Virus record (IMG/VR): IMGVR_UViG_3300037067_012588
From: a virus
Taxonomy: Duplodnaviria > Caudoviricetes
Length of the DNA: 64,000 bases
Reading direction: 5' to 3' (one strand)
The notes below the pieces were generated by a model, which had not been told where the DNA came from, searched no databases, and was given only the letters and a program-made list of their open reading frames with translations. The position numbers and the translations under genes are program-made. The first letter of the stretch is position 1. The number at the start of each line of letters is the position of its first letter. Shown here one piece after another: positions 9,368-57,545 of this stretch.

Positions 9368-9614
9368 TGTCCACACCAAATGCAACAGTCTGCTCAAGAA
9401 GAAAAACACACAACTCAGGAATACTGTCATTTTTTCGTGCAACCGAAACATCTTTTGGCATACTGCTCGGAAAAGACTCTCTCGGACAACACACCTTCCC
9501 AATAAGCCAACGCTTCTCGTCTTGAAAACCCCAAGGAACAACAGCATTCAGCGTATGGTTAAACCTTCGCCTGTTGATGCAAACCATACAAGTCTTCTTG
9601 TTCAAAATTCCCAT
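9354..9614 (-). CDS. CPxxxEH family
   Basis: KKTCMVC...CCP...CVFLLEQ. Confidence 0.75.
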   Translation of the reverse strand: MGILNKKTCMVCINRRRFNHTLNAVVPWGFQDEKRWLIGKVCCPRESFPSSMPKDVSVARKNDSIPELCVFLLEQTVAFGVDNDEA

Positions 9615-9823
9615 GATACCACCTGCTCCGTAAAATACCGACAATCAAACGGTATCCTGTCTATCATACACGGCGGACAACTCTCGCCACAACGAACCAA
9701 GCCAACCGCCCAGTTAAAATCATCCACAACGCCCCAACCGTCAAAACGAGAAAAAAGACCATCCGTCCTCCGACGATGATTGTCACAACACACCTTGCAT
9801 ATCTCCATGCTCAAGGTTCCCAT
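9602..9823 (-). CDS. CPxxxEH family
   Basis: EICKVC...GLVRC...CRYFTEQVVS. Confidence 0.75.
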   Translation of the reverse strand: MGTLSMEICKVCCDNHRRRTDGLFSRFDGWGVVDDFNWAVGLVRCGESCPPCMIDRIPFDCRYFTEQVVSWEF

Positions 9824-10035
9824 GACACCATATGCTCCGTCTGATAAAGACATGCACTGTTAGGCTGGCAACGAACATCACGATACCAAGAGGGGTCATC
9901 ATCACACATAACGATACCCTGGCTAAAACGAATGTCGTCCTCAAACTCCCACCCTGCGTGAGACGAGGGATATTTGAAACTCATCCTGTGCTTGTTCACA
10001 CAAGCCTTACATATCGCCTTGGAAAGAGCCATCAT
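9811..10035 (-). CDS. CPxxxEH family
   Basis: KAICKAC...GIVMC...CLYQTEHMVS. Confidence 0.75.
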   Translation of the reverse strand: MMALSKAICKACVNKHRMSFKYPSSHAGWEFEDDIRFSQGIVMCDDDPSWYRDVRCQPNSACLYQTEHMVSWEP

Positions 10036-10232
10036 TGAACCCCAAAACGTCCAATCTTGCCGCACTTCACACACCGCATCTTCTTGCTCACAGAAGACTT
10101 GATGATGCTACCGCCACACTCACACTGACCAGCAATCACTGGCGCAGGACCAACAACAGCCTCAATCACCTCCTCAATAGGAGGTACAAAACGATGCATA
10201 TACAACGGAAACACCATCATCGACTTATCCAT
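10032..10232 (-). CDS. small Zn-ribbon protein
   Basis: CECGG...CVKCG. Confidence 0.6.
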   Translation of the reverse strand: MDKSMMVFPLYMHRFVPPIEEVIEAVVGPAPVIAGQCECGGSIIKSSVSKKMRCVKCGKIGRFGVQ

Positions 10233-10233
10233 G

Positions 10234-10464
10234 CTATCCCACACGCTGAAAATAGCGCAAAAATTCACGCCGTACACGCCAAACACCAAACGACTCACAC
10301 GCAGCCCGATATGACTCTGATGAATTATACCGAAGCATGATGTTGTCGCCAGATAGACTCTCTTCCTTCATTGCATCACGAGCAGACAACTGTCCGAACG
10401 CAACATAATAGTACGTCCCATTCTGCGGGTTCCGACGCTTCTTGATCCAATACGGCTTAGACAT
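10234..10464 (-). CDS. hypothetical protein
   Basis: GGAGG RBS after promoter repeat. Confidence 0.65.
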   Translation of the reverse strand: MSKPYWIKKRRNPQNGTYYYVAFGQLSARDAMKEESLSGDNIMLRYNSSESYRAACESFGVWRVRREFLRYFQRVG

Positions 10465-10497
10465 CTTTCCATCCTCCAAGATTTGTTCTTCGTCTTT

Positions 10498-10540
10498 CAC
10501 AAAAGAACATCGTCTAGAGAAAGAAAATCTTGGAAAGAAA
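10498..10540 (-). promoter_or_regulatory. GGACGAT promoter-like repeat, copy 3
   Basis: variant AGACGATGTTCTTTTGTG. Confidence 0.65.
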
Positions 10541-10557
10541 ACCAAGCCTCTTACAAA

Positions 10558-10794
10558 TCACGACTCCTCTTGATCATCTTCTTGCTCATCCTCTTGCTCC
10601 TGTTCATCCGCAACCGCTTCCTCGTGGATGTTCGAACCCTCATACGTCTCAACCATGAAAACACAACTCTCACCCCAGCCCTCAGGCTGATCAGACTCTG
10701 CATTCTCGGCTTTCTCTTCAGAAAGATACCAGCGAACATACGCAGAACCGTCTCCACCGTTCATTAACGCCCCAAAAATCTCAACCTTTTTCAT
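10558..10794 (-). CDS. acidic hypothetical protein
   Basis: NGGDGSA...EGWGE motifs, RBS. Confidence 0.7.
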   Translation of the reverse strand: MKKVEIFGALMNGGDGSAYVRWYLSEEKAENAESDQPEGWGESCVFMVETYEGSNIHEEAVADEQEQEDEQEDDQEES

Positions 10795-10877
10795 CGTTTT
10801 TCTCCATAAAAACCTTCAAAAACCACTATTTATGACGAAAATTTGACAAAATTCAGTCAAACACCATCATAAAATAA

Positions 10878-10968
10878 CCAAAAACCAAAAATCCCGATAA
10901 AATCTGCCACGCAGGACTGCCAAAATCGGGTATATAGCCTTCAAAAGAAAAAATAATCGACCTATTTC
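10878..10968. repeat. dispersed ~95-bp element, copy 2
   Basis: exact 20-mer at 10947-10966; CCAAAAACCAAAAATC...TGCCACGCAGGACTG. Confidence 0.8.
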
Positions 10969-11195
10969 GTGCAAAAGCCTATTTTCATCACCTGTTCCAC
11001 AGCATACTCACACCAAACAGGAGGATTATGACAGAACTCTATGAAAGTTACCCTCCTGTTCGAACAAACAACTAACCCAGCTTTCCAATCAGACCGAAAC
11101 TTCTCGACCGTGTATTGTATGCCACCTTCCGAAGCAGGATTAAACCGACCACACTCTTTCGCACAACGGAAACAGATTTCCTTGTCCAACATCAC
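10962..11195 (-). CDS. CPxxxEH family
   Basis: KEICFRC...GLVVC...CEYAVEQ. Confidence 0.75.
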   Translation of the reverse strand: MMLDKEICFRCAKECGRFNPASEGGIQYTVEKFRSDWKAGLVVCSNRRVTFIEFCHNPPVWCEYAVEQVMKIGFCTK

Positions 11196-11252
11196 TGACT
11201 CTCCATAACAACCAAATACGCAATAACTCGCCCCTCAACACCCTCTCTTCCT

Positions 11253-11540
11253 TCACAAGGCAGCCAACAAGTCGGACATCTTCAAAAAACATAGCGTCGG
11301 TGTAGTATAAACACCACAATATCCCTGCCATTGCATAGGTACGGTCACCTCTAAACATTCATCCGTCATCTTACTTATGAGTTTGACCTTGCTATGGGTT
11401 GGGACGCAAATCGTCTTCTGCCAGTATAAAACATCAAGCGGACGTGCCAACTCAAACTCTATTGGCACTCCTTCGCAAAACAACTGAATATCCACCCAAG
11501 CAATAAACTGCCTGTGAGAAAGATCAATAGGAAAATCCAT
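11253..11540 (-). CDS. hypothetical protein
   Basis: ATG at 11540 after GGAGGT. Confidence 0.6.
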   Translation of the reverse strand: MDFPIDLSHRQFIAWVDIQLFCEGVPIEFELARPLDVLYWQKTICVPTHSKVKLISKMTDECLEVTVPMQWQGYCGVYTTPTLCFLKMSDLLAAL

Positions 11541-11586
11541 AATATACCTCCAACAGACACTCCAATATACCTCCAACAGACACTCC
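11541..11586. repeat. perfect 23-bp tandem duplication
   Basis: AATATACCTCCAACAGACACTCC x2. Confidence 0.9.
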
Positions 11587-11590
11587 TCCT

Positions 11591-11627
11591 CACAGAATAT
11601 ATCGTCCAAGAAGAAATTTTCTGACAA
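11591..11627 (-). promoter_or_regulatory. GGACGAT promoter-like repeat, copy 4
   Basis: TTGTCA-15-GACGATATATTCTGTG. Confidence 0.6.
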
Positions 11628-12860
11628 CTATTTCTTCAACCTCAATAAAGCCATATCGAAATATTCCCTCTCACACTCTATCCCAATAAAACCAAAACCC
11701 TCCAAAATCGCAGCCTTGCCCGTACTACCACTACCCATAAATGGGTCAAGAATCAATCCAAAAGGACGTGTCACCAATCGACATAAATAACGCATTAACT
11801 CAGTCGGCTTCACTGTAGGATGCTTGTTGTCCAAACCCCTGTCCTTCTTCGATGCCTTGGCGCAATAAAAGAACCGAGCCGCTGAACCAGAATCACCACG
11901 CTTCTCCGAAGCTATCCGTCCATACTCGCCATAAGCATTCTTCCCAGTATGACTCAGCTCAGTTCCCCTCACATCGCCCTGCTGACCCTTACTCTCAGGA
12001 AACAACCCAATAACCTCTTCACTACCATCATGAATCAAATTCGCTGGATAACGACCCTTCAACTCTGGACGCTCAAATGACTCCCGATCCCTATCATTCT
12101 GTACACCACCAGCCAAAGCACCAGACTTAGCTGTACACTTCCCCTGCGGAGTAGCTGATGCCTTGTCAGCTTCATTTACATACTCAACACGACATCCATC
12201 AATATTCAAACCGCCAGTGCCCCACTTCAAAACATTCTTGGCTATCGTACTCTCAGAAATCGGCTTCTGAAACAACCACCAGTCCTCAACAGCGGGCTTT
12301 AAACATGTATTCCATCCATCCCATTGCTTCGCTTCCTCAGTAGATGGTGTTGTGATAGTTGCACCATTATCCGATCTGTCACTCATTGATTCATTTCCAC
12401 CAATATTCCCGATAGACCCACTTTTATATTGTCTGTTTGGGCGTAAACGTGATTCATCAAAACCTATCACCTCCCGCTCAACACCAGCCTGCTTGTCAAT
12501 CATCTTCCCAATATCTTGTCCCTTTGGAAACCCTGACCCAAAACAATGCGCTATCCTATCCTTCACAACAAAACCAGCATTCTCCCACGCTGTAGCCGTC
12601 CAATGACTTGTCCTCGGTATAGCCCAAACAAGTGCATAACCTCCCGGCTTCAAAACCCTCAAACATTCCCTTGCTATACTCTCCATCCAATTTATCCAAT
12701 GGTCACGACCGCCCTTATCATCATCCCATTCCTTACCCATAAACGATATTCCCGCAGGAGGGTCAGTAACAACACTGTCTACACTGTTCTCAGACATACC
12801 ACTCATCACTTCCAAACAATCACCGTTTATAAGATCAAAAGAATCCATTACACCATCCAT
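11628..12860 (-). CDS. DNA N6-adenine/N4-cytosine methyltransferase (beta-type)
   Basis: GDCLEVM, VTDPPA, HPTVKP, LDPFMGSGSTG. Confidence 0.9.
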   Translation of the reverse strand: MDGVMDSFDLINGDCLEVMSGMSENSVDSVVTDPPAGISFMGKEWDDDKGGRDHWINWMESIARECLRVLKPGGYALVWAIPRTSHWTATAWENAGFVVKDRIAHCFGSGFPKGQDIGKMIDKQAGVEREVIGFDESRLRPNRQYKSGSIGNIGGNESMSDRSDNGATITTPSTEEAKQWDGWNTCLKPAVEDWWLFQKPISESTIAKNVLKWGTGGLNIDGCRVEYVNEADKASATPQGKCTAKSGALAGGVQNDRDRESFERPELKGRYPANLIHDGSEEVIGLFPESKGQQGDVRGTELSHTGKNAYGEYGRIASEKRGDSGSAARFFYCAKASKKDRGLDNKHPTVKPTELMRYLCRLVTRPFGLILDPFMGSGSTGKAAILEGFGFIGIECEREYFDMALLRLKK

Positions 12861-12866
12861 TCAAAA

Positions 12867-12957
12867 CCAAAAACCAAAAATCTGGATTATTTCTGCTACA
12901 CAGGACTGGCACTTTTTCACATATGACACTCAGAAGAAAAAATAATCGACCTATTTC
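12867..12957. repeat. dispersed ~95-bp element, copy 3
   Basis: exact 20-mer at 12936-12955; CCAAAAACCAAAAATCTGGAT...CAGGACTG. Confidence 0.8.
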
Positions 12958-12975
12958 ATCAGAGCTTATTGTTTT

Positions 12976-13407
12976 TCATATCGATGTGTCTCTTCTTGAT
13001 GACTCCAATACTACCTTTGGATTAAGAACCTTCTTGAGATTCTCATCAACAACATCGCTTGCCATCTGAAGGACTTCATTCTCAGTAAGAGCCGTATCAC
13101 TATCAATACCTCTCGTCGTCAGTGCTATATACGTTTTCCCTGTCTTTGTGTTCACTCTGGCTTGAATGGTCTTAGCTGTCAAGAGTATCTTGATAGCTGC
13201 ATTGTAGTGTTGTTTTGACCCTGCAATGTGTCCAGCCATGAATGCACAAAGTCCTGATGCGAACATAGTGATGGGAATGAACAATGCAAGAGATATGGGC
13301 AACGCTTTGAAGTTATATCCACACGTCTGCAAGTGGACGAGAATGATAAGCGGAAGTGTGGTGATGAGATTCAATCCAGCGATGATAAGGGAGAGTTTTG
13401 TTTTCAT
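12976..13407 (-). CDS. membrane protein (2 N-terminal TM)
   Basis: two hydrophobic stretches. Confidence 0.7.
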   Translation of the reverse strand: MKTKLSLIIAGLNLITTLPLIILVHLQTCGYNFKALPISLALFIPITMFASGLCAFMAGHIAGSKQHYNAAIKILLTAKTIQARVNTKTGKTYIALTTRGIDSDTALTENEVLQMASDVVDENLKKVLNPKVVLESSRRDTSI

Positions 13408-13475
13408 AATTTTCTTTCCTCTTGATTTGGAAAAGATTGATTTGTTGGAAAATTTTCTGGCATTTGGCCACGGTT

Positions 13476-13520
13476 TTTAGGTTCGTTTAGGTTCGTTTAG
13501 GTTCGTTTAGGTTTAGGTTC
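13476..13520. repeat. tandem repeat (TTTAGGTTCG)x3 plus two partial units
   Basis: read directly, in non-coding gap at skew switch. Confidence 0.9.
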
Positions 13521-13716
13521 TTTATAATACAGGTAAGCTTCCCTCTATATACAAGCTTCTCTACCTACCCTATCGGCTATGCTATTCGCTATACTTCCCA
13601 CATATAGTCATTATACGCCCACAAGTGGAATTTTTGGGATTTTTTTACGAAGGGGAACATATACAAGTATGTCAAATATAAGCAGTTGTGTTTAGTTTTA
13701 GTTATGTACAGTTTTG

Positions 13717-13980
13717 TTACTGTTTTTTAAGGGGAGAACGTGTTTGTTCTGTGAGGTTGTGTTCGAGTATGTATGGGCAGTCTTTGATGTATTGAATAGC
13801 TTCTGTGGTTTTGACATTGATAGTGTGTGATTGTGGGAATACTGGGCAATTGTGGAAGATGTTTTGGTTCCAGAGTCTTTCCCATGTATTGAGTATTTGT
13901 TGTTGGTTCATTCCATCTACGGTGAAGGAATGAGCGAGGACTCTTTTTGTGAAGCATTGTTTACAGAGAGTTTTGTTCAT
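13717..13980 (-). CDS. CPxxxEH family
   Basis: KTLCKQC...NCP...CPYILEH. Confidence 0.8.
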   Translation of the reverse strand: MNKTLCKQCFTKRVLAHSFTVDGMNQQQILNTWERLWNQNIFHNCPVFPQSHTINVKTTEAIQYIKDCPYILEHNLTEQTRSPLKKQ

Positions 13981-13983
13981 CTT

Positions 13984-14139
13984 TTAGCCTTTGAGATACA
14001 TAACGATAGGGTCGAGGACAAACTTGGTGAACGCCACGACTGAGGCGATAAGTGTGATCATGAAGGCTGTGGATAGGAGTGATGCGAAAGGTTCTGAGTA
14101 ATAGACATTGACGAGGCATTCTTTCTTCTCAACACACAT
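13984..14139 (-). CDS. small TM protein or remnant of membrane subfamily
   Basis: hand-translated 51 aa with one TM helix. Confidence 0.4.
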   Translation of the reverse strand: MCVEKKECLVNVYYSEPFASLLSTAFMITLIASVVAFTKFVLDPIVMYLKG

Positions 14140-14215
14140 TGTTTTGAAACCATTTTATAATCCACCATCAATAGCTTTCTTAAGAGCAGCTATAGCACGA
14201 TTTTGCCATCAGATG

Positions 14216-14701
14216 TCAAGTTACACGAAGTCCCATTGACATATTTTCCTTGGCGAAAGCAGTTAACAACCCATCTTCGCCAACCAGATTCTCAGGGGAT
14301 GATAAAATAATCCGAACCCTGTCAATACCATTATAACTTCTCCCAGGGTTTAAACCAGCGAGTTTTCTATAGATCATTTCATCATCAAAACCAGTATGAT
14401 TTGGTTCTTCTAAATCCATCCGAGTAACACAAGACGAATCTAGGATAGTAGATCCATGTGTAAATTGGTATTCAAAGCTACGGTCAAAACCATATGTATA
14501 ATTCGTTGACCTGAAGGTCTCCATATATCTACTATTAGTTAAGTCCCTATACACACGGAGTGTCGTATCACCCGGACAACCTATTAGAATAACAAGAATG
14601 TTCATATTATACCTTTCAAAAAATTGTTTTTGATCCACCTCTTTATAATATTTTGTAACACATCCAACTTCACTTTTCCATGGTTTTGGAGTAATTCCCA
14701 T
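14216..14701 (-). CDS. hypothetical protein (AT-rich insert)
   Basis: AAGGAG RBS; composition differs from flanks. Confidence 0.7.
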   Translation of the reverse strand: MGITPKPWKSEVGCVTKYYKEVDQKQFFERYNMNILVILIGCPGDTTLRVYRDLTNSRYMETFRSTNYTYGFDRSFEYQFTHGSTILDSSCVTRMDLEEPNHTGFDDEMIYRKLAGLNPGRSYNGIDRVRIILSSPENLVGEDGLLTAFAKENMSMGLRVT

Positions 14702-14809
14702 TGAAATTCTCCTTAAATATAAGGACATCCATATTCTAAATCTGGGAACTTTTCAACTATCTCTGCTGCTGTTTTACAACTGAATTCGTTTCTTCCTTTC
14801 ATGGTTGGA

Positions 14810-15229
14810 TTATACGTCTGGGTCAGGTATTTGGTGTTTGAAAAGTCTGACGATATTAACGAGTATGGTTATGGCATTTGGTATAGCGAAGGCTATAGCG
14901 ATTTCGCTAGGGTATTTTGAGAAGAGTGGTTCTTGTGTTGAGAACGAGATGATATTGAGGCTTTTGAGTGCGTGCGTCACGGCGAGGAAGCCGAGCATAT
15001 AGAGGATGTTAACCAAGAAGATATGTGTGATGAGTTCTTCGAGGATTTTGAATCGGAATTTGAGGTAGATTCTTTGTGCGTATGAGTCAGAGACAACTCT
15101 TTCGAGTTGATATGGGCAGTCTTCGATATTGTAGCAGGTCAGGGGATTTGCCCGGATGTATTGGTATTCTTTTCGCCAATTATTTACATGGCCATAGATG
15201 GGGCAATTTTTAGGGCATGGGTTGAGCAT
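14810..15229 (-). CDS. membrane-anchored CPY subfamily, copy 8
   Basis: NPCPKNC...NPLTC...CPYQLER + 2 TM. Confidence 0.8.
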   Translation of the reverse strand: MLNPCPKNCPIYGHVNNWRKEYQYIRANPLTCYNIEDCPYQLERVVSDSYAQRIYLKFRFKILEELITHIFLVNILYMLGFLAVTHALKSLNIISFSTQEPLFSKYPSEIAIAFAIPNAITILVNIVRLFKHQIPDPDV

Positions 15230-15231
15230 GG

Positions 15232-15621
15232 TTATACTTCTTTCCACAAGGATACGATCATGGAAATCATAGCTCCCAGAGACGCAAACGCAATGCCGAT
15301 GCGGATTTCTCTATAGATGACATGTAGCCAAGGCAATGCCGATGCGATGAGCAAGACAGTTGTCAGGACAACCAAGACCAACGTAATGAAGAAGGGTATG
15401 CTATGGGGCAATTCGGCGTCATATTTCCATCTCATGGTGAACCACATACGACTGAGATAATCTTTGAGTTTGGACGCTTGGAGTGTCCTTTCGAGTTGAT
15501 AGGGGCAATCTGTTTGATTGCAGGAGACTTGATTTGGTGTATTTTTGAGGACATCATCCCAAGGTTTGATGGTTGTGTGTTTGAAGGCATGGCAGGATTT
15601 CGGGCATGTATTGAGCATCAT
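15232..15621 (-). CDS. membrane-anchored CPY subfamily, copy 7
   Basis: NTCPKSC...SC...CPYQLERT + 2 TM. Confidence 0.8.
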   Translation of the reverse strand: MMLNTCPKSCHAFKHTTIKPWDDVLKNTPNQVSCNQTDCPYQLERTLQASKLKDYLSRMWFTMRWKYDAELPHSIPFFITLVLVVLTTVLLIASALPWLHVIYREIRIGIAFASLGAMISMIVSLWKEV

Positions 15622-16013
15622 ATATCTATTTCATGGCATAAGACGATGTATAGACATAAGACAGCAGCGACGATCAATGAGGTTGCCGAGACGAATTGGA
15701 GTTCCTGTTCAAGGATTGGCAGGAACGAGATAAGGACAGCAGCCATGAACCCTATAGCCAAGACGAAGATGAACGCAGCGACTCTGTTTGGGAGTTTGAG
15801 TTTTGAGACTATGATGATGAAATACAGTGCAGCGAGGGTGAATATTTTTGATGGTGATGCTTGGAGTGTCCTTTCGAGTTCATAGGGACAATCGTGAGTG
15901 TTTTCACAAGTGAATGGATTGGGGAGTTTTTTCCAGATATTTTTGAGTTCTGGGAATGCTGCAAAGCCTTCGTGTTTGAAGGCTTTGCAGCATTTTGGGC
16001 ATGTATTGAGCAT
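15618..16013 (-). CDS. membrane-anchored CPY subfamily, copy 6
   Basis: NTCPKCC...NPFTC...CPYELERT + 3 TM. Confidence 0.8.
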   Translation of the reverse strand: MLNTCPKCCKAFKHEGFAAFPELKNIWKKLPNPFTCENTHDCPYELERTLQASPSKIFTLAALYFIIIVSKLKLPNRVAAFIFVLAIGFMAAVLISFLPILEQELQFVSATSLIVAAVLCLYIVLCHEIDI

Positions 16014-16016
16014 GGT

Positions 16017-16400
16017 TTATTCTTCTTTGAGTTTTCTAGTCAGATATACGATCATGTCGATTATACAAACCACATAGAGGAACGGCACAAGGCTTTCGCA
16101 GACGAATGACACGAGATATGTGACGGTCAATATAGCCATAACTCTCAGCAGCATCTTGAAGAACCAAATCTGTTTGTTCAACGATATGAGTTTGACTAAG
16201 AAATACAAGATAAAAACGCCTGCATTCATCCAAGAGAACGAGATAGTTCTTTCAACGAGATATGGGCATATGGAATCTTGTCTGAGCGAGTTGTTTGCGC
16301 AGGTCATAGGGTTTGGGATATTTTTCCAAAATTTATCCGTATCGCCGCCATCATAGCGATGTTCGAAGGCATGGCAGGATTTTGGGCAAGTGGTATTCAC
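16017..16400 (-). CDS. membrane-anchored CPY subfamily, copy 5
   Basis: TTCPKSC...NPMTC...CPYLVERT + TMs. Confidence 0.8.
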   Translation of the reverse strand: MNTTCPKSCHAFEHRYDGGDTDKFWKNIPNPMTCANNSLRQDSICPYLVERTISFSWMNAGVFILYFLVKLISLNKQIWFFKMLLRVMAILTVTYLVSFVCESLVPFLYVVCIIDMIVYLTRKLKEE

Positions 16401-16795
16401 ATATTTCTCATCATGACGAGCGTGATAATGGTAGCGGCAACAAAAGTATAACATGACGGCATTACGATAACTACCGCCTCAGCGAGAATTGGCATATTGA
16501 GGAGCTGGGCCATATTTCCGATGATGGAAAGCAGTCCTGTAACGATCATTGCTACGAAGAAGAAATTCACTGGCACGTCGAAATTGTGTTTGAGGATTGA
16601 TTTGAAGACGAAGAAGACCATGAGTATGAAAGCGTCCACCCGAGAGAACAGGACAGTTCTTTCGACGAGATAGGGGCAGGTATCATATTCGAACGAGCTA
16701 TTGGCACAGGTCACTGGGTTTGGGTTCTTTTCCCAGACGGATGACAAATAATTTGGTTCAAAGGCTTTGCAGTGTTTTGGGCATGTATTGAGCAT
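16397..16795 (-). CDS. membrane-anchored CPY subfamily, copy 4
   Basis: NTCPKHC...NPVTC...CPYLVERT + 3 TM. Confidence 0.8.
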   Translation of the reverse strand: MLNTCPKHCKAFEPNYLSSVWEKNPNPVTCANSSFEYDTCPYLVERTVLFSRVDAFILMVFFVFKSILKHNFDVPVNFFFVAMIVTGLLSIIGNMAQLLNMPILAEAVVIVMPSCYTFVAATIITLVMMRNM

Positions 16796-16798
16796 GGT

Positions 16799-17191
16799 TT
16801 ATTTCACTCCCCAATCATCCACAATTTCAACGAAGACGGATACAGCGCACACGACGAACAGGGCGATACTTGCTCCGAAGAGTTCTTTGCTGGCGATTTT
16901 GTTTTGGATAATCAGCAGTGTAATTCCCAAGACAAGCGTAAACAGCGGCACGAATGCTTCTTTTCTGAATTCGGCGTGTAATAACCCGCCGTATGATTTT
17001 ACTTTCAAGAGGAACATTTTCAGCTTGGATTTTTGGAGAATCATTTCGAGTTGGTACGGGCAACTGTCAGTATCTTCGTGTCCGCACGATATTGGGTTTG
17101 GTTCTTTTTCCAGAAAATTGTCCAAAACCTCGATATCATAGACACGGAGGTGAAGAAAGGTTTGGCAGTTTTTTGGGCAAGGGTTAATCAA
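16799..17191 (-). CDS. membrane-anchored CPY subfamily, copy 3
   Basis: NPCPKNC...NPISC...CPYQLE + 2 TM. Confidence 0.8.
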   Translation of the reverse strand: MINPCPKNCQTFLHLRVYDIEVLDNFLEKEPNPISCGHEDTDSCPYQLEMILQKSKLKMFLLKVKSYGGLLHAEFRKEAFVPLFTLVLGITLLIIQNKIASKELFGASIALFVVCAVSVFVEIVDDWGVK

Positions 17192-17565
17192 GTTTCGCTT
17201 CCAATTGCTACAACCAAAACAACGCACACGCTGGCGATATACAGGACAAACAATTCAGTGTTGATAATTTTCATGCTTGAGAACAAGGTGGCAAGGAGAG
17301 CCACCCCTGCAAAAATACTTGCCAAAATCAAGAGCACTTCCTTTTTGTCGAGTCTCACTTCATTATACGCTTTGATGGTGAAGGTGAGTTTGGTGAATAA
17401 ATATCCCAGCCCTTGTTTTGCGAGTAACAGTTCGAGTTGGTATGGGCAGTGTTGTTCAACGGTTTGGCAAGTAACCGGGTTTGGGATATTATCCAGCGGT
17501 TTTGGGTAATATTTTGATTTGGACAGGTGGTTATATTTTGGGCAATTTTTGGGGCAAGGGTTCAT
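17188..17565 (-). CDS. membrane-anchored CPY subfamily, copy 2
   Basis: NPCPKNC...NPVTC...CPYQLE + 2 TM. Confidence 0.8.
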   Translation of the reverse strand: MNPCPKNCPKYNHLSKSKYYPKPLDNIPNPVTCQTVEQHCPYQLELLLAKQGLGYLFTKLTFTIKAYNEVRLDKKEVLLILASIFAGVALLATLFSSMKIINTELFVLYIASVCVVLVVAIGSET

Positions 17566-17945
17566 CGTAATTTTCTTCCGATAATAAGTGAGGCAGCGCA
17601 GACGATGACGACGGTAACAGCGCAAGCCACTTCCAGTTCACGTTTGAGGACGGGCAATAAGATTGCATCTATGCCAAGGACGAAGAGGGTGAATATCGCC
17701 ACAAGCAAGACAAACAGCACTGGTGGAACCAGATATTCATTCAACGCTCTGACGCCATACCAAGCCTTTAGGACGATTTTGTTCAGTCCTTGGAGGCTGA
17801 GTAGCACTTCGAGTTCGTAAGGGCACTGTGAGCCTTTGTTGGCGCAGGTGACGGGGTTTGGTATGGTATAGAGCGGCAGAGTTCTTTCGAATCTGTAGGT
17901 TTGGGTTTCGTGCTGGTATTTTTTACAGTTTTTGCAAGGGTTCAT
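17562..17945 (-). CDS. membrane-anchored CPY subfamily, copy 1
   Basis: NPCKNC...NPVTC...CPYELE + 2 TM. Confidence 0.8.
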   Translation of the reverse strand: MNPCKNCKKYQHETQTYRFERTLPLYTIPNPVTCANKGSQCPYELEVLLSLQGLNKIVLKAWYGVRALNEYLVPPVLFVLLVAIFTLFVLGIDAILLPVLKRELEVACAVTVVIVCAASLIIGRKLR

Positions 17946-18166
17946 GTGTGTTTTTCCAAAAGCGAGCCATCAATCAGAGAATACGAGCAACGGTTTTTGA
18001 TGTTAAAAGTCTTTGCCCCTTCACGTTCGCCGTTTTGTATTTCACGTTCAGTGACATAAATCTGCCCTTTGAAGCAATCTTCCAAAAGAAAAGAACCATC
18101 CTTTTTGATAGCCTTTACTGTGTAAAGCACTTTTTCGATATAGACACAATCGTCAACATTGGTCAT
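17942..18166 (-). CDS. hypothetical protein
   Basis: GAGG RBS, ATGA overlap. Confidence 0.6.
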   Translation of the reverse strand: MTNVDDCVYIEKVLYTVKAIKKDGSFLLEDCFKGQIYVTEREIQNGEREGAKTFNIKNRCSYSLIDGSLLEKHT

Positions 18167-18170
18167 GTGC

Positions 18171-18401
18171 TTATTCCTCCTCAAAAACTGCATGTTCGGT
18201 AAGGTACGGGCAGCCGAAGTTATCTCCGACCAAGCTGAAAAGGAGTCGTCCGCATATTTTCGGACAGAGGCAGTGGACTTTCTTATCGAACAACACTTCC
18301 CATTCTTTTTCAGACATTTTGACGGAATAACTCTGGTTAAATATGTATTTGTCGAATTGGTCTTGGAGACATTTTCTGCAGACCTCTTTGGCGAATTTCA
18401 T
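18171..18401 (-). CDS. CPxxxEH family
   Basis: KEVCRKC...CP...CPYLTEH. Confidence 0.8.
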   Translation of the reverse strand: MKFAKEVCRKCLQDQFDKYIFNQSYSVKMSEKEWEVLFDKKVHCLCPKICGRLLFSLVGDNFGCPYLTEHAVFEEE

Positions 18402-18637
18402 GATTGACTCACAATATGTTCAGTGGCGTATGGACACCAATGTGGTATTTTGTATTTCGAGACACTGAAAAACCGAGCGCCTTCTCCAGAGATTACTTTA
18501 TCTGGACAGATGTGATTTACTCGTCCATCTTTACTCCAGAATTTTTCTACTCGTTCATCCCATCCTTGACTGGATAGAAATGAGACGATTCTGTATTTAT
18601 TGATGCATATCTTACAGATGTCTTTGTTCAGATTCAT
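18398..18637 (-). CDS. CPxxxEH family
   Basis: KDICKIC...CP...CPYATEHIVSQ. Confidence 0.8.
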   Translation of the reverse strand: MNLNKDICKICINKYRIVSFLSSQGWDERVEKFWSKDGRVNHICPDKVISGEGARFFSVSKYKIPHWCPYATEHIVSQS

Positions 18638-18910
18638 TCATAACCCCTGAGCGACTACTTGTTCTGTAGCGTATGGGCAACCATTTGAGATTATACTTTG
18701 TAATGAGTCGAAGGATATGAGATTTGTTTTTCCCATCTTTGATCGAAAATCATCATATTCGATTCTGAGGATAGGGCAGGCTACGATATTAAGTCGCCAC
18801 ATTGATTTGAGTAAAGCTGGAGACCACAGGATACCTTTCCTGTGGTCGTCTTGGCTTACTAAACGATGATCTTGAACGCATTTCAGGCAAATATTATAGA
18901 CTGGATTCAT
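18638..18910 (-). CDS. CPxxxEH family
   Basis: NICLKC...CP...CPYATEQ. Confidence 0.8.
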   Translation of the reverse strand: MNPVYNICLKCVQDHRLVSQDDHRKGILWSPALLKSMWRLNIVACPILRIEYDDFRSKMGKTNLISFDSLQSIISNGCPYATEQVVAQGL

Positions 18911-19173
18911 ATTTGTTTCTCCGTAGATATAGTATGCTCAGTGGCGAATAGACAATGTTTGAAAAGCATCTCTTCAAACAGGCTGATTGCGATGCATCCG
19001 ACATAGCCCACCAATTGTTCACCAGATACTTCAACGAAAAACTGAGCTCCTAAATCCTTAAGCACAGGACAAACAATAAATCCTTCATCCCATTTTTTAT
19101 TGGAGTTTTGGGTAAAAAACTCTGAAAGGAATTTCTCTTGGCATTGACGGCACACCTCTCTATTTGGCTTCAT
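18907..19173 (-). CDS. CPxxxEH family
   Basis: REVCRQC...WDEGFIVCP...CLFATEH. Confidence 0.8.
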   Translation of the reverse strand: MKPNREVCRQCQEKFLSEFFTQNSNKKWDEGFIVCPVLKDLGAQFFVEVSGEQLVGYVGCIAISLFEEMLFKHCLFATEHTISTEKQI

Positions 19174-19600
19174 GATTCCCCTCATAGGCAACCACATGTT
19201 CAGTTGCGAACGGGCAAATACATAACCCTTCTAATAGGTCAATTGTTTTAACCCCAATCTCAACAAACATCGTTCTTGGGCAGTATCGAAGGCGTCCTCT
19301 TTTGAAAGACTCTTCCCACTCGTCGATTGTTGAGCATGGCGGTATTATTTTAAGAACGCATTGTCGACAGACATCAATATTCGGAGTCAATTGTGTTCTT
19401 TGGAGTTTTTTATGTTCCTTGTTTTGTGGGCAACGTCTGTATTTTTTTAAGAAATCTGCTTTGAAATTGAAAGAAGTCCCACTTTGCCCTCCGATAGGCT
19501 TACAATGGACAACATCCACGCTCCACGAATAATCGAAGTCTTCTGGTTTTACTCCAGCCTTGATACGGCAAGCTTTGCAGACGCTATATATTGGTCTCAT
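19160..19600 (-). CDS. CPxxxEH family, two-domain
   Basis: two CxxC...C...CP units, ends CPFATEH. Confidence 0.8.
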   Translation of the reverse strand: MRPIYSVCKACRIKAGVKPEDFDYSWSVDVVHCKPIGGQSGTSFNFKADFLKKYRRCPQNKEHKKLQRTQLTPNIDVCRQCVLKIIPPCSTIDEWEESFKRGRLRYCPRTMFVEIGVKTIDLLEGLCICPFATEHVVAYEGNHEAK

Positions 19601-19788
19601 GATTCCTTCTTGGTATGGTATCTTTTTATCTCCTCATTGATTCTCACAATATTATCGCAAATCTTCTGAAAATCGTTTGCGCTGTCGCAAACACGGATAC
19701 ATGTGTTCTCGAAATGCAAGAATACTGCTTCTTCCATCACATCACCGTCACTATCATAGGAATTCACACTGAAGGTTATTTCCATCAT
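19597..19788 (-). CDS. hypothetical protein
   Basis: overlapping start/stop. Confidence 0.6.
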   Translation of the reverse strand: MMEITFSVNSYDSDGDVMEEAVFLHFENTCIRVCDSANDFQKICDNIVRINEEIKRYHTKKES

Positions 19789-20063
19789 TCACCATCCCAT
19801 TCACCGACAATATCAAGGTGTTCGGCATAATTGCCTTGATGTCCAGAGCGTCCGTAACGATTCCAGCAGGAAATACGCCACTCCCATCCACCGATTGTTC
19901 GCATAAGTATTGCACCGTGGATGGCTTCCCACAGGTTTTCACAGTGACAAGTTGCATCGAGCTTATCGACGATAACGGCATAGAAGCGAACCTTCAGACC
20001 ATTTCGGGTCTTGTAGAGCTTGTTAAGGTCAAAACCTTCGGCATAGGCATCAAACACAATCAT
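19785..20063 (-). CDS. hypothetical phage protein
   Basis: YKTRNGLKVR...W...G...LDIV motif. Confidence 0.65.
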   Translation of the reverse strand: MIVFDAYAEGFDLNKLYKTRNGLKVRFYAVIVDKLDATCHCENLWEAIHGAILMRTIGGWEWRISCWNRYGRSGHQGNYAEHLDIVGEWDGE

Positions 20064-20472
20064 CCTCCTTCTGGGTCGCCAAGAAGTGCTCAAGCAAATA
20101 CGGGCAGTCAGGGTGAACGTCATTACAAATAGACGTAGCCTTCATTCGGGCGACTAGCCAACACGGCACACAAGCCTGTTTTTCGAGCCAATCCTTGAAG
20201 GCATTTTTGTCATTATTGCCGTCTCGCTCATCGCAACACCTTCTGCAGATTTCCACTGAATGCTTTACTGGTCTCTTGACATGGGCATATTTTCTCAGCT
20301 TTGCCTTGTTGGTGCAACACCTCGGAACGGGAATATCAACCGAACGATAGATAGCTTTCGTTTTTGGGCAATATTTCAGCAAGTTTGTGACAGGGTCTAT
20401 CTCTGCACAAGCTCTCTTGTTGTCCTCCCGCAAGCACCTTCCACAAATGTCCTTATGTGGATACGGGTTCAT
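20050..20472 (-). CDS. CPxxxEH family, two-domain
   Basis: KDICGRC...EICRRC...CPYLLEH. Confidence 0.8.
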   Translation of the reverse strand: MNPYPHKDICGRCLREDNKRACAEIDPVTNLLKYCPKTKAIYRSVDIPVPRCCTNKAKLRKYAHVKRPVKHSVEICRRCCDERDGNNDKNAFKDWLEKQACVPCWLVARMKATSICNDVHPDCPYLLEHFLATQKEDDCV

Positions 20473-21083
20473 AAAACGCTTTCCACGGTGCGATTGCGCA
20501 CTTCATCCTGTTGTTCTTTGGTGAACCAAAACTCAGCATTTGACAACGGAGTTTTCTTGAGTCCAGCGCAAGCGATGATGGCCTTTGTTTCCCCCATGAG
20601 TCCACCCACAAGCAAGCCAGTGCTGATATAGCCGTTCGGTTGGATACAATACGGCTTGAACGAATAATTCAACGGATATTCGTGGTATGCTTGGTTGGCG
20701 ATTTGATACATGCGTTCATCCACGAGGATGCTAAATCTTTTGTCTCCAACCATACGCACCGTGGCGTATTTTCCTTTTTCGGAGCCAGGGCACAGGAATT
20801 CCCTATCGGCGTTATCCAATATCTTGCTGAATCTTACGGGACGAAAAATGTCCTCTTGCATGGCATCTGTCGATGGATTTTCTTTCATTCCAATGTAATA
20901 TTTGAACGACCGTTTAACTCTATACAGCCATTCCCTTCCACCGCTGAATATTCCGCACGCTTTGCAGTCTCTTGGCAGTTTCATGTAAAAGCATGGAGAA
21001 GCCAGCCAACGGGAGATTTCCCCTTCGCCTATCATCTTGAAAAACCCATCGCTCTTTTTGATTCGGATGCTTTTCATTTTCAA
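20469..21083 (-). CDS. hypothetical protein
   Basis: 204-aa ORF after promoter repeat. Confidence 0.7.
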   Translation of the reverse strand: MKMKSIRIKKSDGFFKMIGEGEISRWLASPCFYMKLPRDCKACGIFSGGREWLYRVKRSFKYYIGMKENPSTDAMQEDIFRPVRFSKILDNADREFLCPGSEKGKYATVRMVGDKRFSILVDERMYQIANQAYHEYPLNYSFKPYCIQPNGYISTGLLVGGLMGETKAIIACAGLKKTPLSNAEFWFTKEQQDEVRNRTVESVL

Positions 21084-21120
21084 TTACCCCATCAGACGTT
21101 GATAAAATACCTCTTCATGT

Positions 21121-21157
21121 CTATATATCGTCCGAAGGGCAAATTATTCCTGAGAAA
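21121..21157 (-). promoter_or_regulatory. GGACGAT promoter-like repeat, copy 5
   Basis: GGACGATATATAG core. Confidence 0.5.
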
Positions 21158-21425
21158 TAACGTGTTCAAGAAAAAATGGGCATTGGTCGGAGTCTGGGGC
21201 TAATTCGTCGTCTTCGTCGAAATCTCGACAAGCCAAGCACAGATTTTCTCCAACCGCTTTGCACCAAAGGATATACCCATAGTTTTTGACATGGGTATCG
21301 AAATATTCACGAGCCCTCTCGATAGGCAGATTTGGGTGAGAGTGTGAGCCTTTGGGCGTATATCTGCCTGTAGTTTTGACGGCACTACAGGCGCAAGCTC
21401 GGCATATTTCTGTATTTGGCTTCAT
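21144..21425 (-). CDS. CPxxxEH family
   Basis: KPNTEICRAC...WC...CPFFLEH. Confidence 0.8.
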   Translation of the reverse strand: MKPNTEICRACACSAVKTTGRYTPKGSHSHPNLPIERAREYFDTHVKNYGYILWCKAVGENLCLACRDFDEDDELAPDSDQCPFFLEHVISQE

Positions 21426-21682
21426 TGGTTATCGCCTTCAAGGGTTTGCTCCAAGAAATACGGGCAGTCACTTGGAATGCCTTCTGTGACAAAAAAACCG
21501 AATGGTCTTTGGCAAGGACACCAAAATACCCTCCCATTGTCAAATCGCACCGAGACATCGTTTAATGTGTTTTCCCATAGTATCTCTATCGATGTACTCT
21601 CGATCTCCCAATCCAAAAGATTTTCAAATTGATGTTTTACTGCGCACGGGACACAGATATTTTTATTCGGTTTTGGGTTCAT
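21422..21682 (-). CDS. CPxxxEH family
   Basis: NICVPC...CPC...CPYFLEQ. Confidence 0.8.
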   Translation of the reverse strand: MNPKPNKNICVPCAVKHQFENLLDWEIESTSIEILWENTLNDVSVRFDNGRVFWCPCQRPFGFFVTEGIPSDCPYFLEQTLEGDNQ

Positions 21683-21950
21683 TGGAAATTACCTGTTCTG
21701 TCAGATAACGGCATTGCGGCGGCGTCTTGAAATAGGGGAAATAATCATCCTCTGAGTAGAAATAATCATGCTGAGTTTTCATCAACTGCCAGCTATCGAT
21801 TTGGTTTTTGACTTTCTTGTTGATGTCTCTAATCAACTGACAGTGAAAATCCCTCTTGAGAAATTCGCATTGGCATTTCAAGCATATTCGGATATTCCTG
21901 TCGGCGAATTTTCCATCCCATGATTTTGCCAGATATTCAAGATAATTCAT
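21663..21950 (-). CDS. CPxxxEH family
   Basis: ICLKC...C...CRYLTEQVIS. Confidence 0.75.
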   Translation of the reverse strand: MNYLEYLAKSWDGKFADRNIRICLKCQCEFLKRDFHCQLIRDINKKVKNQIDSWQLMKTQHDYFYSEDDYFPYFKTPPQCRYLTEQVISNEPKTE

Positions 21951-22209
21951 TCGATTCGCACTCTATGAAATGCTCCAAGAAATACGGGCATTTGTCTGGG
22001 ATGCCGTCTTCTATAAAAAACCCAAAAGGCATTTTACAAGGACAAAAGAACACCTGCCCGTTGCCAAATCGCAAAGAGACGTCTCTCAATATTATTTCCC
22101 TTCGCACAGAAACGTCTGTCAACATTCTTTCACTCTCCGTCATCAGAACGTCACCTTGATATTTGGCAGCGCAAGGCAAGCAGATATTTATGTCTGGTTT
22201 AGGATTCAT
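21937..22209 (-). CDS. CPxxxEH family
   Basis: NICLPC...CPC...CPYFLEH. Confidence 0.8.
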   Translation of the reverse strand: MNPKPDINICLPCAAKYQGDVLMTESERMLTDVSVRREIILRDVSLRFGNGQVFFCPCKMPFGFFIEDGIPDKCPYFLEHFIECESNELS

Positions 22210-22519
22210 TTGAAATCACCTGTTCAGTGAAATACGGGCAGAGATTCGATTTGGGAGCCATCTCATCGTCTTGGTCAAAATCTCTGTTTATTCGCATTCC
22301 TGGGTTTGTACCACACTCCTCAACCCCTGATGATCCTATATACATCTGAGCAACCGCAGGACACCATTTAATCAGTCCGCTACGCCTTTTGATATTCTTG
22401 TCGAATGTTTTATACACTTGTTCTGGAGTTAATTGTTTAATTTTCAAGTTAGTTTTAGAGCGCCAAACAATATGGCGGTTACAAGCGCACTGTCTGCAGA
22501 TTTCGACATTAGGCTTCAT
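22199..22519 (-). CDS. CPxxxEH family
   Basis: KPNVEICRQC...WCP...CPYFTEQ. Confidence 0.8.
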   Translation of the reverse strand: MKPNVEICRQCACNRHIVWRSKTNLKIKQLTPEQVYKTFDKNIKRRSGLIKWCPAVAQMYIGSSGVEECGTNPGMRINRDFDQDDEMAPKSNLCPYFTEQVISNES

Positions 22520-22787
22520 TGGACACCACCTGTTCAGTGAAATACGGGCAGAGGTTTGACTTCGGGGCATTCAGAGCGCCAGAGTCAAAATCTCGACTTA
22601 TATTCATCGACAGTGAAATCTTTTTCGAGATTTTAAGAGCTTGACACCACAAAATAGACCTGAATTTGCTTGTTGTTATGTCAAACGTTTTGTAAACATC
22701 TTCTCTTGTTCGTGGAGACAGGCTTATCAATTTATTGATATAATACTCACAAGCGCACGTCCTACATATATCGATGTTAGGCTTCAT
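22509..22787 (-). CDS. CPxxxEH family
   Basis: KPNIDICRTC...WC...CPYFTEQ. Confidence 0.8.
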   Translation of the reverse strand: MKPNIDICRTCACEYYINKLISLSPRTREDVYKTFDITTSKFRSILWCQALKISKKISLSMNISRDFDSGALNAPKSNLCPYFTEQVVSNEA

Positions 22788-23395
22788 TGTTCTCTGCCTT
22801 ATCGGCGTCATATTCATGGGTCGATGATTTGTTCGCTATGGCATGTTCCACAACCAAGCCGCACTCTTTTGGGACAAACTTGCGAAGGTTCCAGTTTATC
22901 TGACGAGACCACAGGCATCCGTACAAAACATCATCGGAGTATTGGTCGCACCCAGACATTTTGCAGACATCTGGATGTATCAGGACTTCTTCGAAATGCT
23001 GACTGTCTTCCCGAAGATTCTTCGCATGACGGTCACGGGCAAACCTTACGCCTTCGGCAGACACCTCTTCTGTTGGCTCTTCCTCGAAAAGCGCCTCAAG
23101 GTTTTCTTCCATTTTTTTGTTTTCCAAAATTTGTTCTTCCTTGAAAAGACAATTCTCCAATACGGGACACGCTTCGCTTCCATCATCGAAATCAGCGTTG
23201 AACTCTACAAACATGTTTTTGGACGCTTTGCAGAGATAGAAAAAAATCATGGTTGAGACTTTCAGTCCCGCACTTCTGACAAATATGTTTAAGAGCCTTC
23301 AATTTTGGACGTTCCCACGGCTGTCTGGATTTGAACCAGATTTTTGGTTGGCTTTTACCGAACCCGTCGATTCGGTATGCTCGCAGCCCTTCCAT
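22777..23395 (-). CDS. CPxxxEH family, two-domain, interrupted by +1 frameshift at a T7 run (23240-23246)
   Basis: ICQKC in ORF 23192..23395 joins C...CLFKEEQ and VCKMSGC...CGLVVEH in ORF 22777..23250. Confidence 0.55.
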
Positions 23396-57359: not shown

Positions 57360-57545
57360 TCAGATTCGAAAAAGTTTTCTGGCGACAGCCATTAGTCGCC
57401 CAAGCCAACCAGAGTCACAACCAATTGCCCTTTCCACCTCATAAGGACAGCCTTCATCCGACAAAAAGCAGAACTTTTCGTTGGGAGTTTTCGGCGCAGA
57501 AGACGTAAGCGCCAGATATTTCTCACAGGTTTTCGGGCAGCCCAT
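57360..57545 (-). CDS. CPY subfamily (CPKxC type), short
   Basis: CPKTC...PN..C...CPYEVER. Confidence 0.65.
   Translation of the reverse strand: MGCPKTCEKYLALTSSAPKTPNEKFCFLSDEGCPYEVERAIGCDSGWLGRLMAVARKLFRI

What the first reader, a model, noticed from the sequence alone, without database searches (positions are those of the whole stretch)
14810..17945. Eight tandem membrane-anchored versions of the Cys domain
Seen: eight consecutive 125-140 aa genes, each N[PT]CPKxC...NPx[TS]C...CPYx[LV]E[R] followed by 2-3 divergent TM helices. A relative without clear TM helices lies at 57360..57545. Inference: the same C-terminal Zn/docking motif is grafted onto variable membrane modules, possibly a diversified set of superinfection-exclusion proteins or inhibitors of membrane defence effectors.
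Basis: partly seen in the sequence, partly recalled or inferred. Interest (0 to 1): 0.75.

Follow-up and report, generated by a model that had tools for sequence, protein, structure and literature searches.

The report
Membrane-anchored four-cysteine mini-proteins, jumbo phage
An uncultured 345-kb phage carries eight back-to-back genes for small proteins that join a compact four-cysteine (probably metal-binding) head to a membrane-spanning hairpin; a related phage has at least two at the same spot, no database recognises them, and their function is untested.

Summary
Eight contiguous minus-strand genes at 14810-17945 encode proteins of 125-139 aa, separated by -4 to +3 nt. Each has a 44-51-aa head, C-x3-C...[PNP]xxC...CPYxxE (m8 has C-x2-C), then one weakly hydrophobic or amphipathic helix and two strong transmembrane (TM) helices.

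The membrane parts are not unrelated grafts. They are collinear and more alike than hydropathy-preserving shuffles (16.6% against 13.3%, 0 of 80 shuffles reach it). This points to one fusion, then tandem duplication and fast divergence.

The link to the phage's roughly 48-member soluble family (CxxC...CP[YF]xxEH) rests statistically on the CPYxxE motif alone. The four-Cys order is collinear, but no similarity is detectable once the motif is masked.

Pfam, PHROGs, NCBIfam, PADLOC, PDB sequences, BFVD and GenBank phages give no hit. An exhaustive profile search of 1.8 billion representatives found only the paralogues and one JGI protein. A syntenic 2.7-kb contig of a related phage holds an m-type gene at the same position, directly followed by the start of that JGI protein.

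Best reading, inferred: N-in/C-in hairpin proteins that display a cytoplasmic metal-stapled binding head at the inner face of the host membrane. The function is unknown.

The scan read this stretch once more in another window, and the soluble family was followed up separately.

The parts
17562..17945 (-). m8, 127 aa. First gene of the array. Its head has C-x2-C like the soluble family, followed by one helix and 2 TM helices.
17188..17565 (-). m7, 125 aa. Its ATG overlaps the m8 stop (ATGA).
16799..17191 (-). m6, 130 aa. TTG start overlapping the m7 stop.
16397..16795 (-). m5, 132 aa. Sister of m4, the only supported pair in the tree.
16017..16400 (-). m4, 127 aa. GTG start overlapping the m5 stop. 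The public gene call used a later ATG, which loses the first Cys pair (P0009).
15618..16013 (-). m3, 131 aa. This is the member that was modelled. It is the closest to the JGI relative P0006 (61% identity in the head).
15232..15618 (-). m2, 128 aa (129 aa if the ATG at 15621 is used).
14810..15229 (-). m1, 139 aa. Last gene of the array, with a longer (27-aa) loop between the two TM helices.
57360..57545 (-). 61-aa relative of the same subtype (CPKxC...NExxC...CPYEVER). It has no TM helix but has an amphipathic basic C-terminal tail.
14714..14803 (-). 29-aa ORF directly after m1 that ends in GCPYI. Probably a decayed remnant of a family member.

Best explanation
Anatomy and history (shown). 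The eight genes are a lineage-specific tandem expansion of one membrane-anchored branch of the phage's four-cysteine mini-domain family. A single ancestral gene joined a compact head to a juxtamembrane helix and a two-helix membrane hairpin. It was then duplicated in place, and the copies diverged strongly: heads are 31-53% identical, membrane parts about 17%.

Topology (inferred). The head is C-x3-C, about 26 residues, C, 5-10 residues, then CPYxxE running into a helix. The head, the basic juxtamembrane helix and the short C-tail face the cytoplasm. Only a 3-27-residue loop, carrying a conserved Glu at the start of the last helix, faces the periplasm.

Mechanism (inferred, committed). The proteins hold a metal-stapled binding head against the inner face of the host membrane. 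The head is probably zinc-stapled; the metal is untested. There they capture, sequester or inhibit a membrane-proximal partner during infection. They would be the membrane-tethered arm of the phage's large repertoire of soluble four-Cys binders.

The TM-less relative at 57360-57545 ends in an amphipathic basic helix. This suggests that membrane association is the selected property of the whole subtype.
For: Real genes in one block:
- Junctions are -4 to +3 nt, and motif-coding DNA repeats with a 377-410-nt period.
- Conserved columns are C5, C9, C36, C42, P43, Y44 and E47.

One origin for the membrane part:
- The profile aligns all members over their full length.
- The C-terminal parts exceed full shuffles (16.6% against 11.9%, z 5.7) and within-hydropathy-block shuffles (13.3%, z 4.2, 0 of 80).

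Conserved elsewhere:
- L001, a syntenic contig of a related phage, carries a 123-aa m-type gene (68 bits to the profile of the eight). It lies directly after the orthologue of 18171-18401.
- The contig's last 35 nt encode the first 12 residues of P0006.

Topology:
- In the hairpin model 83 K+R lie on the N-side and tails against 9 in the inter-TM loops.
- The loop before the first strong TM helix is always basic.
- There is no signal peptide, and soluble homologues lack one too.

Link to the soluble family:
- hhalign hit on CPYxxE.
- All four Cys fall in the family's four invariant Cys columns in an unsupervised MAFFT alignment.
- 26 of the top 30 sub-threshold HMM hits are family members.
- m8 keeps C-x2-C.
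- The array is flanked by soluble members.

Amphipathic tail of the TM-less relative.
Against: - No functional evidence of any kind exists.
- Metal binding is untested. Cys-Pro contexts would also suit an Fe-S or iron site.
- AlphaFold2 gives the head pLDDT 41-57, so no fold comparison was possible.
- With CPYxxE masked, the head is not detectably similar to the soluble family.
- The topology rests on the positive-inside rule and Kyte-Doolittle hydropathy only. In m3-m5, P0006 and the L001 protein the first helix is hydrophobic enough (KD about 1.9-2.2) to span the membrane, which would change the topology.
- The amphipathicity of that helix is not significant against shuffles in the eight.
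- If the heads are a binder repertoire, one would expect them to be the most variable part. Here they are the most conserved part.
Confidence: 0.45

Rival explanations
1. Inhibitors or traps of host membrane proteins, for example membrane-bound defence effectors or transporters. Specificity would lie in the diverged TM hairpins, through helix-helix pairing in the bilayer. The conserved head would supply a common effector or docking function.
For: - The TM parts are the most diverged part and the head the most conserved.
- The array is lineage-specifically expanded: eight copies here against at least two detected in the relative.
- Between the two phages the copies are only 26-41% identical, while two neighbouring genes are 81% identical.
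Against: - Divergence of the TM parts is also what neutral drift of a simple anchor gives.
- Other soluble neighbours are equally diverged between the phages (36-49%).
- There are no PADLOC or other defence-related hits nearby.
- The host is unknown.
Confidence: 0.2
2. Superinfection-exclusion or injection-blocking proteins of the inner membrane, as T4 Imm is.
For: - Small phage inner-membrane proteins with a two-helix hairpin.
- They lie in a region of small non-structural genes with two further small membrane proteins just downstream: 12976-13407 and 13984-14139.
Against: - The predicted periplasmic exposure is only a 3-15-residue loop in seven of eight, and the conserved part is cytoplasmic.
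- Eightfold redundancy is not needed for exclusion.
- No match to any PHROG or Pfam exclusion family.
Confidence: 0.1
3. Subunits of one hetero-oligomeric membrane assembly built by the phage, such as a channel, scaffold or anchoring platform. The eight paralogues would be made in fixed ratios.
For: - Start/stop overlaps and gaps of 3 nt or less suggest translational coupling.
- Sizes are uniform and the architecture is conserved.
Against: - Equally tight packing is seen throughout this genome, for example 18171-19600.
- The related phage appears to have fewer copies, which argues against a fixed eight-part complex.
Confidence: 0.1
4. Holin- or pinholin-like membrane-permeabilising proteins with a regulatory cytoplasmic head.
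For: The size (125-139 aa) and the predicted N-in/C-in two-helix hairpin resemble class II holins. This rests on established knowledge of holin classes and the topology.
Against: - No holin family hit in Pfam, PHROGs, NCBIfam or BFVD.
- C-tails are 4-13 residues with 0-3 basic residues.
- Eight copies.
- No lysis enzyme among the neighbours scanned.
Confidence: 0.07
5. The head is exported and disulfide-bonded (N-out), acting in the periplasm.
For: Four invariant Cys could form two disulfides. The first helix is hydrophobic in some members.
Against: - There is no signal peptide.
- The N-side (head plus the stretch up to the first strong TM helix) holds 6-11 K+R per protein.
- The soluble relatives have no export signal.
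- Long basic N-tails are not translocated without one (established positive-inside rule).
Confidence: 0.05

Closest known systems
The soluble CxxC...W...C...CP[YF]xxEH four-cysteine mini-protein family of this same phage. It is undescribed and was followed up elsewhere in this scan.
   Same: - The same terminal Cys-Pro-Tyr-x-x-Glu motif leads into a helix.
- The four Cys are in the same order.
- Same genome, directly adjacent genes.
- m8 keeps C-x2-C.
   Different: - The head is compact: 5-10 residues between Cys3 and Cys4, against 15-40 in the soluble family.
- The first pair is C-x3-C with Pro-Lys.
- PNPxxC replaces W-x-x-G-x-V-x-C.
- The His after Glu is replaced by R, M, L or V.
- The motif is followed by about 80 residues of membrane helices instead of ending the protein.
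- No detectable similarity once the motif is masked.
Lineage-specific expansion of about 35 zinc-ribbon proteins in Bacillus phage G (Iyer et al. 2021, PMC7824862).
   Same: A jumbo phage that has multiplied one small Cys-based domain many times, with unknown function.
   Different: - tblastn of m3 and of one soluble member against GenBank phages found nothing.
- That expansion is described as soluble, possibly transcription factors or DNA binders.
- No membrane-anchored branch is described there.
Zinc-binding anti-sigma factors (ZAS; RsrA, RslA and ChrR type; Pfam zf-HC2).
   Same: The architecture and a possible logic: an N-terminal cytoplasmic metal-binding head followed by a membrane anchor, which holds a cytoplasmic partner at the membrane. 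This rests on established knowledge.
   Different: No H-x3-C-x2-C motif and no Pfam hit. Two or three helices rather than one. No sigma factor found next to the array.
Membrane-anchored rubredoxin RubA of cyanobacteria and plastids.
   Same: A small N-terminal four-Cys metal domain tethered to the membrane by a C-terminal anchor (established knowledge).
   Different: No rubredoxin knuckles (C-x2-C-G, C-P-x-C-G) and no Pfam rubredoxin hit at E up to 1. The anchor is a hairpin, not a single helix.
Small phage inner-membrane proteins: T4 Imm (superinfection exclusion) and class II holins.
   Same: Size class and the predicted two-helix N-in/C-in hairpin.
   Different: Those proteins have no Cys head. 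No family match. Eight tandem paralogues are not a feature of either.

Membership tests
Soluble CxxC...CP[YF]xxEH mini-domain family of this phage | C-terminal C-P-[YF]-x-x-E motif followed by a short helix | tested here: met
   hhalign of the heads (A3) against the soluble members (A4): E 2.5e-5, prob 75%, 15 columns. The motif is invariant in all ten membrane forms.
Soluble CxxC...CP[YF]xxEH mini-domain family of this phage | Four invariant Cys in the same order | tested here: met
   In the joint MAFFT alignment A6, C5, C9, C36 and C42 fall in the family's four invariant Cys columns.
Soluble CxxC...CP[YF]xxEH mini-domain family of this phage | First pair C-x2-C and His directly after the Glu | tested here: not met
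   Seven of eight have C-x3-C. None has E-H; they have R, M, L or V.
Soluble CxxC...CP[YF]xxEH mini-domain family of this phage | Sequence similarity outside the terminal motif | tested here: not met
   With the motif masked, an HMM of the truncated heads does not rank family ORFs above others (Mann-Whitney p 0.08; p 0.23 against Cys-rich controls).
Soluble CxxC...CP[YF]xxEH mini-domain family of this phage | Same three-dimensional fold | tested here: inconclusive
   AlphaFold2 gave pLDDT 41-57 for the head with both alignments, so no usable model was obtained.
Holins (class II / pinholin) | Match to a holin family profile or fold | tested here: not met
   Pfam, PHROGs and NCBIfam give only sub-threshold compositional hits. 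BFVD best E 0.73.
Holins (class II / pinholin) | Two TM helices, N-in/C-in, with a charged C-terminal tail | tested here: inconclusive
   The hairpin and N-in orientation are predicted from hydropathy and K/R counts. The tails are short (4-13 aa) with 0-3 basic residues.
Zinc-binding anti-sigma factors (zf-HC2) | H-x3-C-x2-C motif or a PF13490 match | tested here: not met
   No Pfam hit at E up to 1. The motif is absent from the alignment.
Superinfection-exclusion proteins (T4 Imm type) | Match to a described exclusion family | tested here: not met
   No PHROG or Pfam match.
Known anti-phage defence proteins | Match to a PADLOC model | tested here: not met
   No hit at E up to 0.1.

The most novel reading that the evidence does not exclude
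The array is a diversified set of membrane-embedded 'trap' proteins. Each TM hairpin would pair with a different host membrane protein, for example a pore-forming or membrane-bound defence effector. The shared metal-stapled head would neutralise it or hand it to a common phage factor. That would be a new class of phage counter-defence acting inside the bilayer.
Probability: 0.12. Interest if true: 0.8.

Novelty: new variant of a known kind. Interest (0 to 1): 0.45.

Why it matters
Large expansions of tiny Cys-stapled proteins are turning up in many uncultured jumbo phages, and none has a known function. This array is the first case seen in this scan where one such domain is tethered to the membrane and then multiplied. 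That gives the family a predicted cellular address, the inner face of the host membrane. It also gives experimentally easy handles: localisation, topology, metal content and partners. If the heads of the tethered and soluble forms bind the same kind of partner, the tethered forms could reveal what the whole 50-100-copy family does.

Tried and rejected
Family and structure databases:
- Pfam, PHROGs, NCBIfam and PADLOC scans of all eight gave only sub-threshold compositional TM hits.
- A PDB sequence search with the head profile gave antibody light chains at E 0.3, which is noise.
- The ESM Atlas gave no feature hit, and its structure rows had TM-scores below 0.5.
- Foldseek against BFVD with the pLDDT-63 model gave nothing below E 0.7.

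Structure prediction:
- AlphaFold2 on m3 with 9 sequences, and on the head alone with 22 sequences (heads plus soluble members), left the head at pLDDT 41-57.
- For that reason I did not run PDB fold searches on it.

Searches for relatives:
- GenBank phages gave no DNA or protein match.
- The first metagenome scan, with P0006, found nothing.
- A word-based search with the soluble alignment gave only 7 hits, too few for a deep alignment.
- No whole genome is held for this window.

Rejected ideas:
- The plus-strand ORFs overlapping the array (15403-15885 and 17033-17509) are not the real genes. The motifs, the paralogy and the synteny with L001 all lie in the minus frames.
- P0010 is not a relative. 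It is a repeat protein that matches only through a recurring GCPYQLE.
- The local G/C-skew inversion is not a property of the membrane genes. It sits at third codon positions and covers all genes from 13.7 to about 19 kb.
- The promoter and terminator scan did not exceed shuffles.
- The tree of the paralogues is a star, with only m4+m5 supported.
Full report
CONTEXT

The window is part of a 344,634-bp uncultured phage contig. Almost all genes lie on the minus strand. It encodes ThyX with an inserted LAGLIDADG domain, NAMPT, a Nudix/NMN-adenylyltransferase-like protein, NAD kinase and a DNA methylase. The NAMPT is at most 48% identical to those of known jumbo phages. The region has no DNA match in GenBank phages.

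A simple motif census finds 48 of 397 minus-strand ORFs with C-[PLI]-[YFW]-x-x-[EQ] near their end. This is the soluble four-Cys family that other notes of this scan describe.

OBSERVATION

Eight consecutive minus-strand ORFs fill 14810-17945. Aligning the paralogues and looking at start/stop overlaps fixes the starts. The proteins are then 125-139 aa, and the junctions, listed from m8 down to m1, are -4, -4, +3, -4, +3, -1 and +2 nt.

DNA repeats with a period of 377-410 nt correspond to the motif-coding segments.

Each protein has three parts:
- A 44-51-residue head.
- A helix of variable hydrophobicity.
- Two strongly hydrophobic helices (Kyte-Doolittle 2.0-3.2 over 17 residues).

AlphaFold2 on m3 predicts helices 54-71, 76-96 and 103-128 at pLDDT 65-77 and leaves the head unmodelled.

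m8 has C-x2-C, m2 has NQ, and only five of eight end the motif with Arg.

The compact C-x3-C subtype occurs nowhere else in the window except in the 61-aa ORF at 57360-57545. That ORF matches an HMM built from the eight heads alone at 28 bits. It ends in an amphipathic basic tail instead of TM helices.

ONE MODULE OR MANY?

Heads are 31-53% identical pairwise. BLAST detects the C-terminal parts in only a few pairs, but always in register. A profile of the eight aligns every member end to end.

The mean pairwise identity of the C-terminal parts is 16.6%. After shuffling each sequence and realigning it is 11.9 +/- 0.8%. When residues are shuffled only inside hydropathy blocks, so that the helix layout is kept, it is 13.3 +/- 0.8%, and none of 80 shuffles reaches the observed value.

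A short loop motif, usually P-[IVF]-L-x-x-E-[LI], with Glu at the start of the last helix, is kept in most members.

So the membrane part descends from one ancestor. The array arose by one fusion and then tandem duplication, not by repeated grafting.

The tree is a star with long tips (0.7-2.2 changes per site), and only m4+m5 are supported. This indicates old or fast-diverging copies.

RELATION TO THE SOLUBLE FAMILY

Profile-profile comparison of the heads with 18 single-domain soluble members gives one hit over the CPYxxE motif and the following helix: E 2.5e-5, probability 75%, 15 columns. With relaxed settings the alignment extends collinearly through all four Cys and a Trp.

An unsupervised joint MAFFT alignment puts the four Cys and the Glu in the family's invariant columns. 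Of the 30 best sub-threshold hits of the head HMM in the window, 26 carry the family motif (p about 1e-26) and three more are variants of it.

That enrichment is driven by the motif itself. When the motif is masked and the HMM truncated before it, family ORFs no longer score above other ORFs (p 0.08; p 0.23 against Cys-rich ORFs).

My reading is that the head is a compact, strongly diverged member of the family. This is supported by the motif, the Cys order, m8's ancestral C-x2-C and the genomic embedding. Only the motif is statistically secured, and the fold test could not be done.

DISTRIBUTION

An exhaustive HMM search of 1.84 billion cluster representatives found the window's own paralogues, one foreign protein (P0006, 130 aa, from a 9.3-kb JGI contig) and one false positive. 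The word-indexed search gave the same result. A search with the head alone found only the 57360 ORF.

A second metagenome scan used P0016, the orthologue of the neighbouring soluble gene. It retrieved L001 (JGI contig Ga0172381_10080216, 2734 bp). L001 is syntenic with 18.2-21.7 kb of the window, as follows:

| L001 element | Window counterpart | Identity |
|---|---|---|
| orthologue | 20050-20472 | 49% aa |
| orthologue | 18638-18910 | 81% aa, 86% nt |
| orthologue | 18398-18637 | 81% aa |
| orthologue | 18171-18401 | 39% aa |
| 123-aa m-type gene, directly after the previous one | m genes | 68 bits to the profile of the eight; 25-35% to individual copies |
| last 35 nt of the contig | next gene | encode the first 12 residues of P0006 |

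A related phage therefore has at least two tandem copies at the same place.

L001's m-type protein itself was not in the searched library, so 'no further hits' is weak evidence. Even so, no other copy from the 9.3-kb contig was found, which suggests that the relative has fewer copies and that the eightfold expansion is specific to this phage.

TOPOLOGY AND MECHANISM (INFERRED)

In the hairpin model, 83 Lys+Arg lie in the N-side and C-tails of the eight proteins, against 9 in the inter-TM loops. The segment just before the first strong TM helix is always basic.

If the first helix of m3-m5 were treated as membrane-spanning, it would put a basic loop outside and an acidic, Lys/Arg-free loop inside. 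This is disfavoured by the positive-inside rule.

There is no signal peptide, and the soluble relatives have none. I therefore place the head, the juxtamembrane helix and the C-tail in the cytoplasm, with a 3-27-residue loop outside.

The most economical mechanism is a membrane-tethered binding head: the soluble family's module brought to the inner face of the membrane. The TM-less relative with an amphipathic tail fits the idea that membrane association is what defines this subtype.

What the head binds is unknown. It is also unknown whether the diverged TM hairpins carry specificity of their own (rival 1) or merely drift.

No holin, transporter, exclusion or defence family matches.

COMPARISON WITH KNOWN SYSTEMS

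The nearest published parallel for the expansion is the roughly 35-copy zinc ribbon of Bacillus phage G (PMC7824862). tblastn of m3 and of one soluble member against GenBank phages found nothing.

Two families are architectural analogues only, and their defining motifs are absent:
- Zinc-binding anti-sigma factors.
- Membrane-anchored rubredoxin.

I searched papers for membrane-anchored zinc-finger phage proteins and for small membrane proteins with zinc ribbons. I found nothing comparable.

VERDICT

This is a real, cleanly delimited and lineage-restricted gene array. It is a new membrane-anchored variant within an undescribed phage four-Cys family. Its anatomy and evolutionary origin are well supported. 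Its topology is predicted and its function is unknown.

The same stretch was also noted in an overlapping window of this scan (e1-5781504). The soluble family was followed up separately (e1-5781534).

Noticed in passing
window 14714-14803 (-): A 29-aa ORF directly after m1 has two Cys and ends in GCPYI-stop. It looks like a truncated remnant of a family member. It scores weakly with the head HMM (E 0.08 among 397 ORFs).
   Followed up: partly
window 12976-14139 (-): Two further small membrane proteins lie just downstream of the array. One is a 143-aa protein with two N-terminal TM helices (12976-13407). The other is a 51-aa single-TM protein (13984-14139). Together, 12.9-17.9 kb forms an island of membrane proteins.
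   Followed up: partly
window 8200-23250: The G/C-skew switch is at third codon positions. Coding-strand GC3 skew is +0.3 to +0.66 for genes at 8.2-12.9 kb and -0.25 to -0.75 for genes at 13.7-18.9 kb, fading towards 0 beyond 19 kb. AT3 skew flips as well. It is therefore a regional mutational asymmetry with its break at 12.9-13.7 kb, not an effect of membrane-protein composition. The gene at 14216-14701 is an exception (skew +0.24, GC3 0.28) and may be a recent acquisition.
   Followed up: partly
L001:1855-2106 (+) against window 18398-18637: In the related phage the orthologue is 81% identical up to the last Cys. It then reads CPRTRYQ... instead of CPYATEH, which suggests a frameshift at the family's defining motif (pseudogene or assembly error).
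   Followed up: no
L001 against window 18171-21700: Conservation between the two phages is mosaic. Two family members are 81% identical in protein (86% in DNA), while their immediate neighbours are 36-49% identical. The 83-aa gene at 17942-18193 has no counterpart in L001.
   Followed up: partly
window 15974-16021 and 16756-16803: The 5' ends and upstream junctions of m3 and m5 are 92% identical over 48 nt, far above the rest of the genes. This could be local gene conversion or a constrained translation-start region.
   Followed up: no
window 33047-33445 (-): Another N-terminal Cys head (C-x3-C-x3-C ... CPFFLEQ) is followed by glycine-rich GGxV repeats. This is a second case where the domain is N-terminal to a different C-terminal module.
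   Followed up: no
window 25743-26180 (-): A two-domain soluble family member carries an extra amphipathic C-terminal tail after CPYELEH (hydrophobic moment 0.64 over 14 residues). It is possibly another peripheral membrane binder.
   Followed up: no
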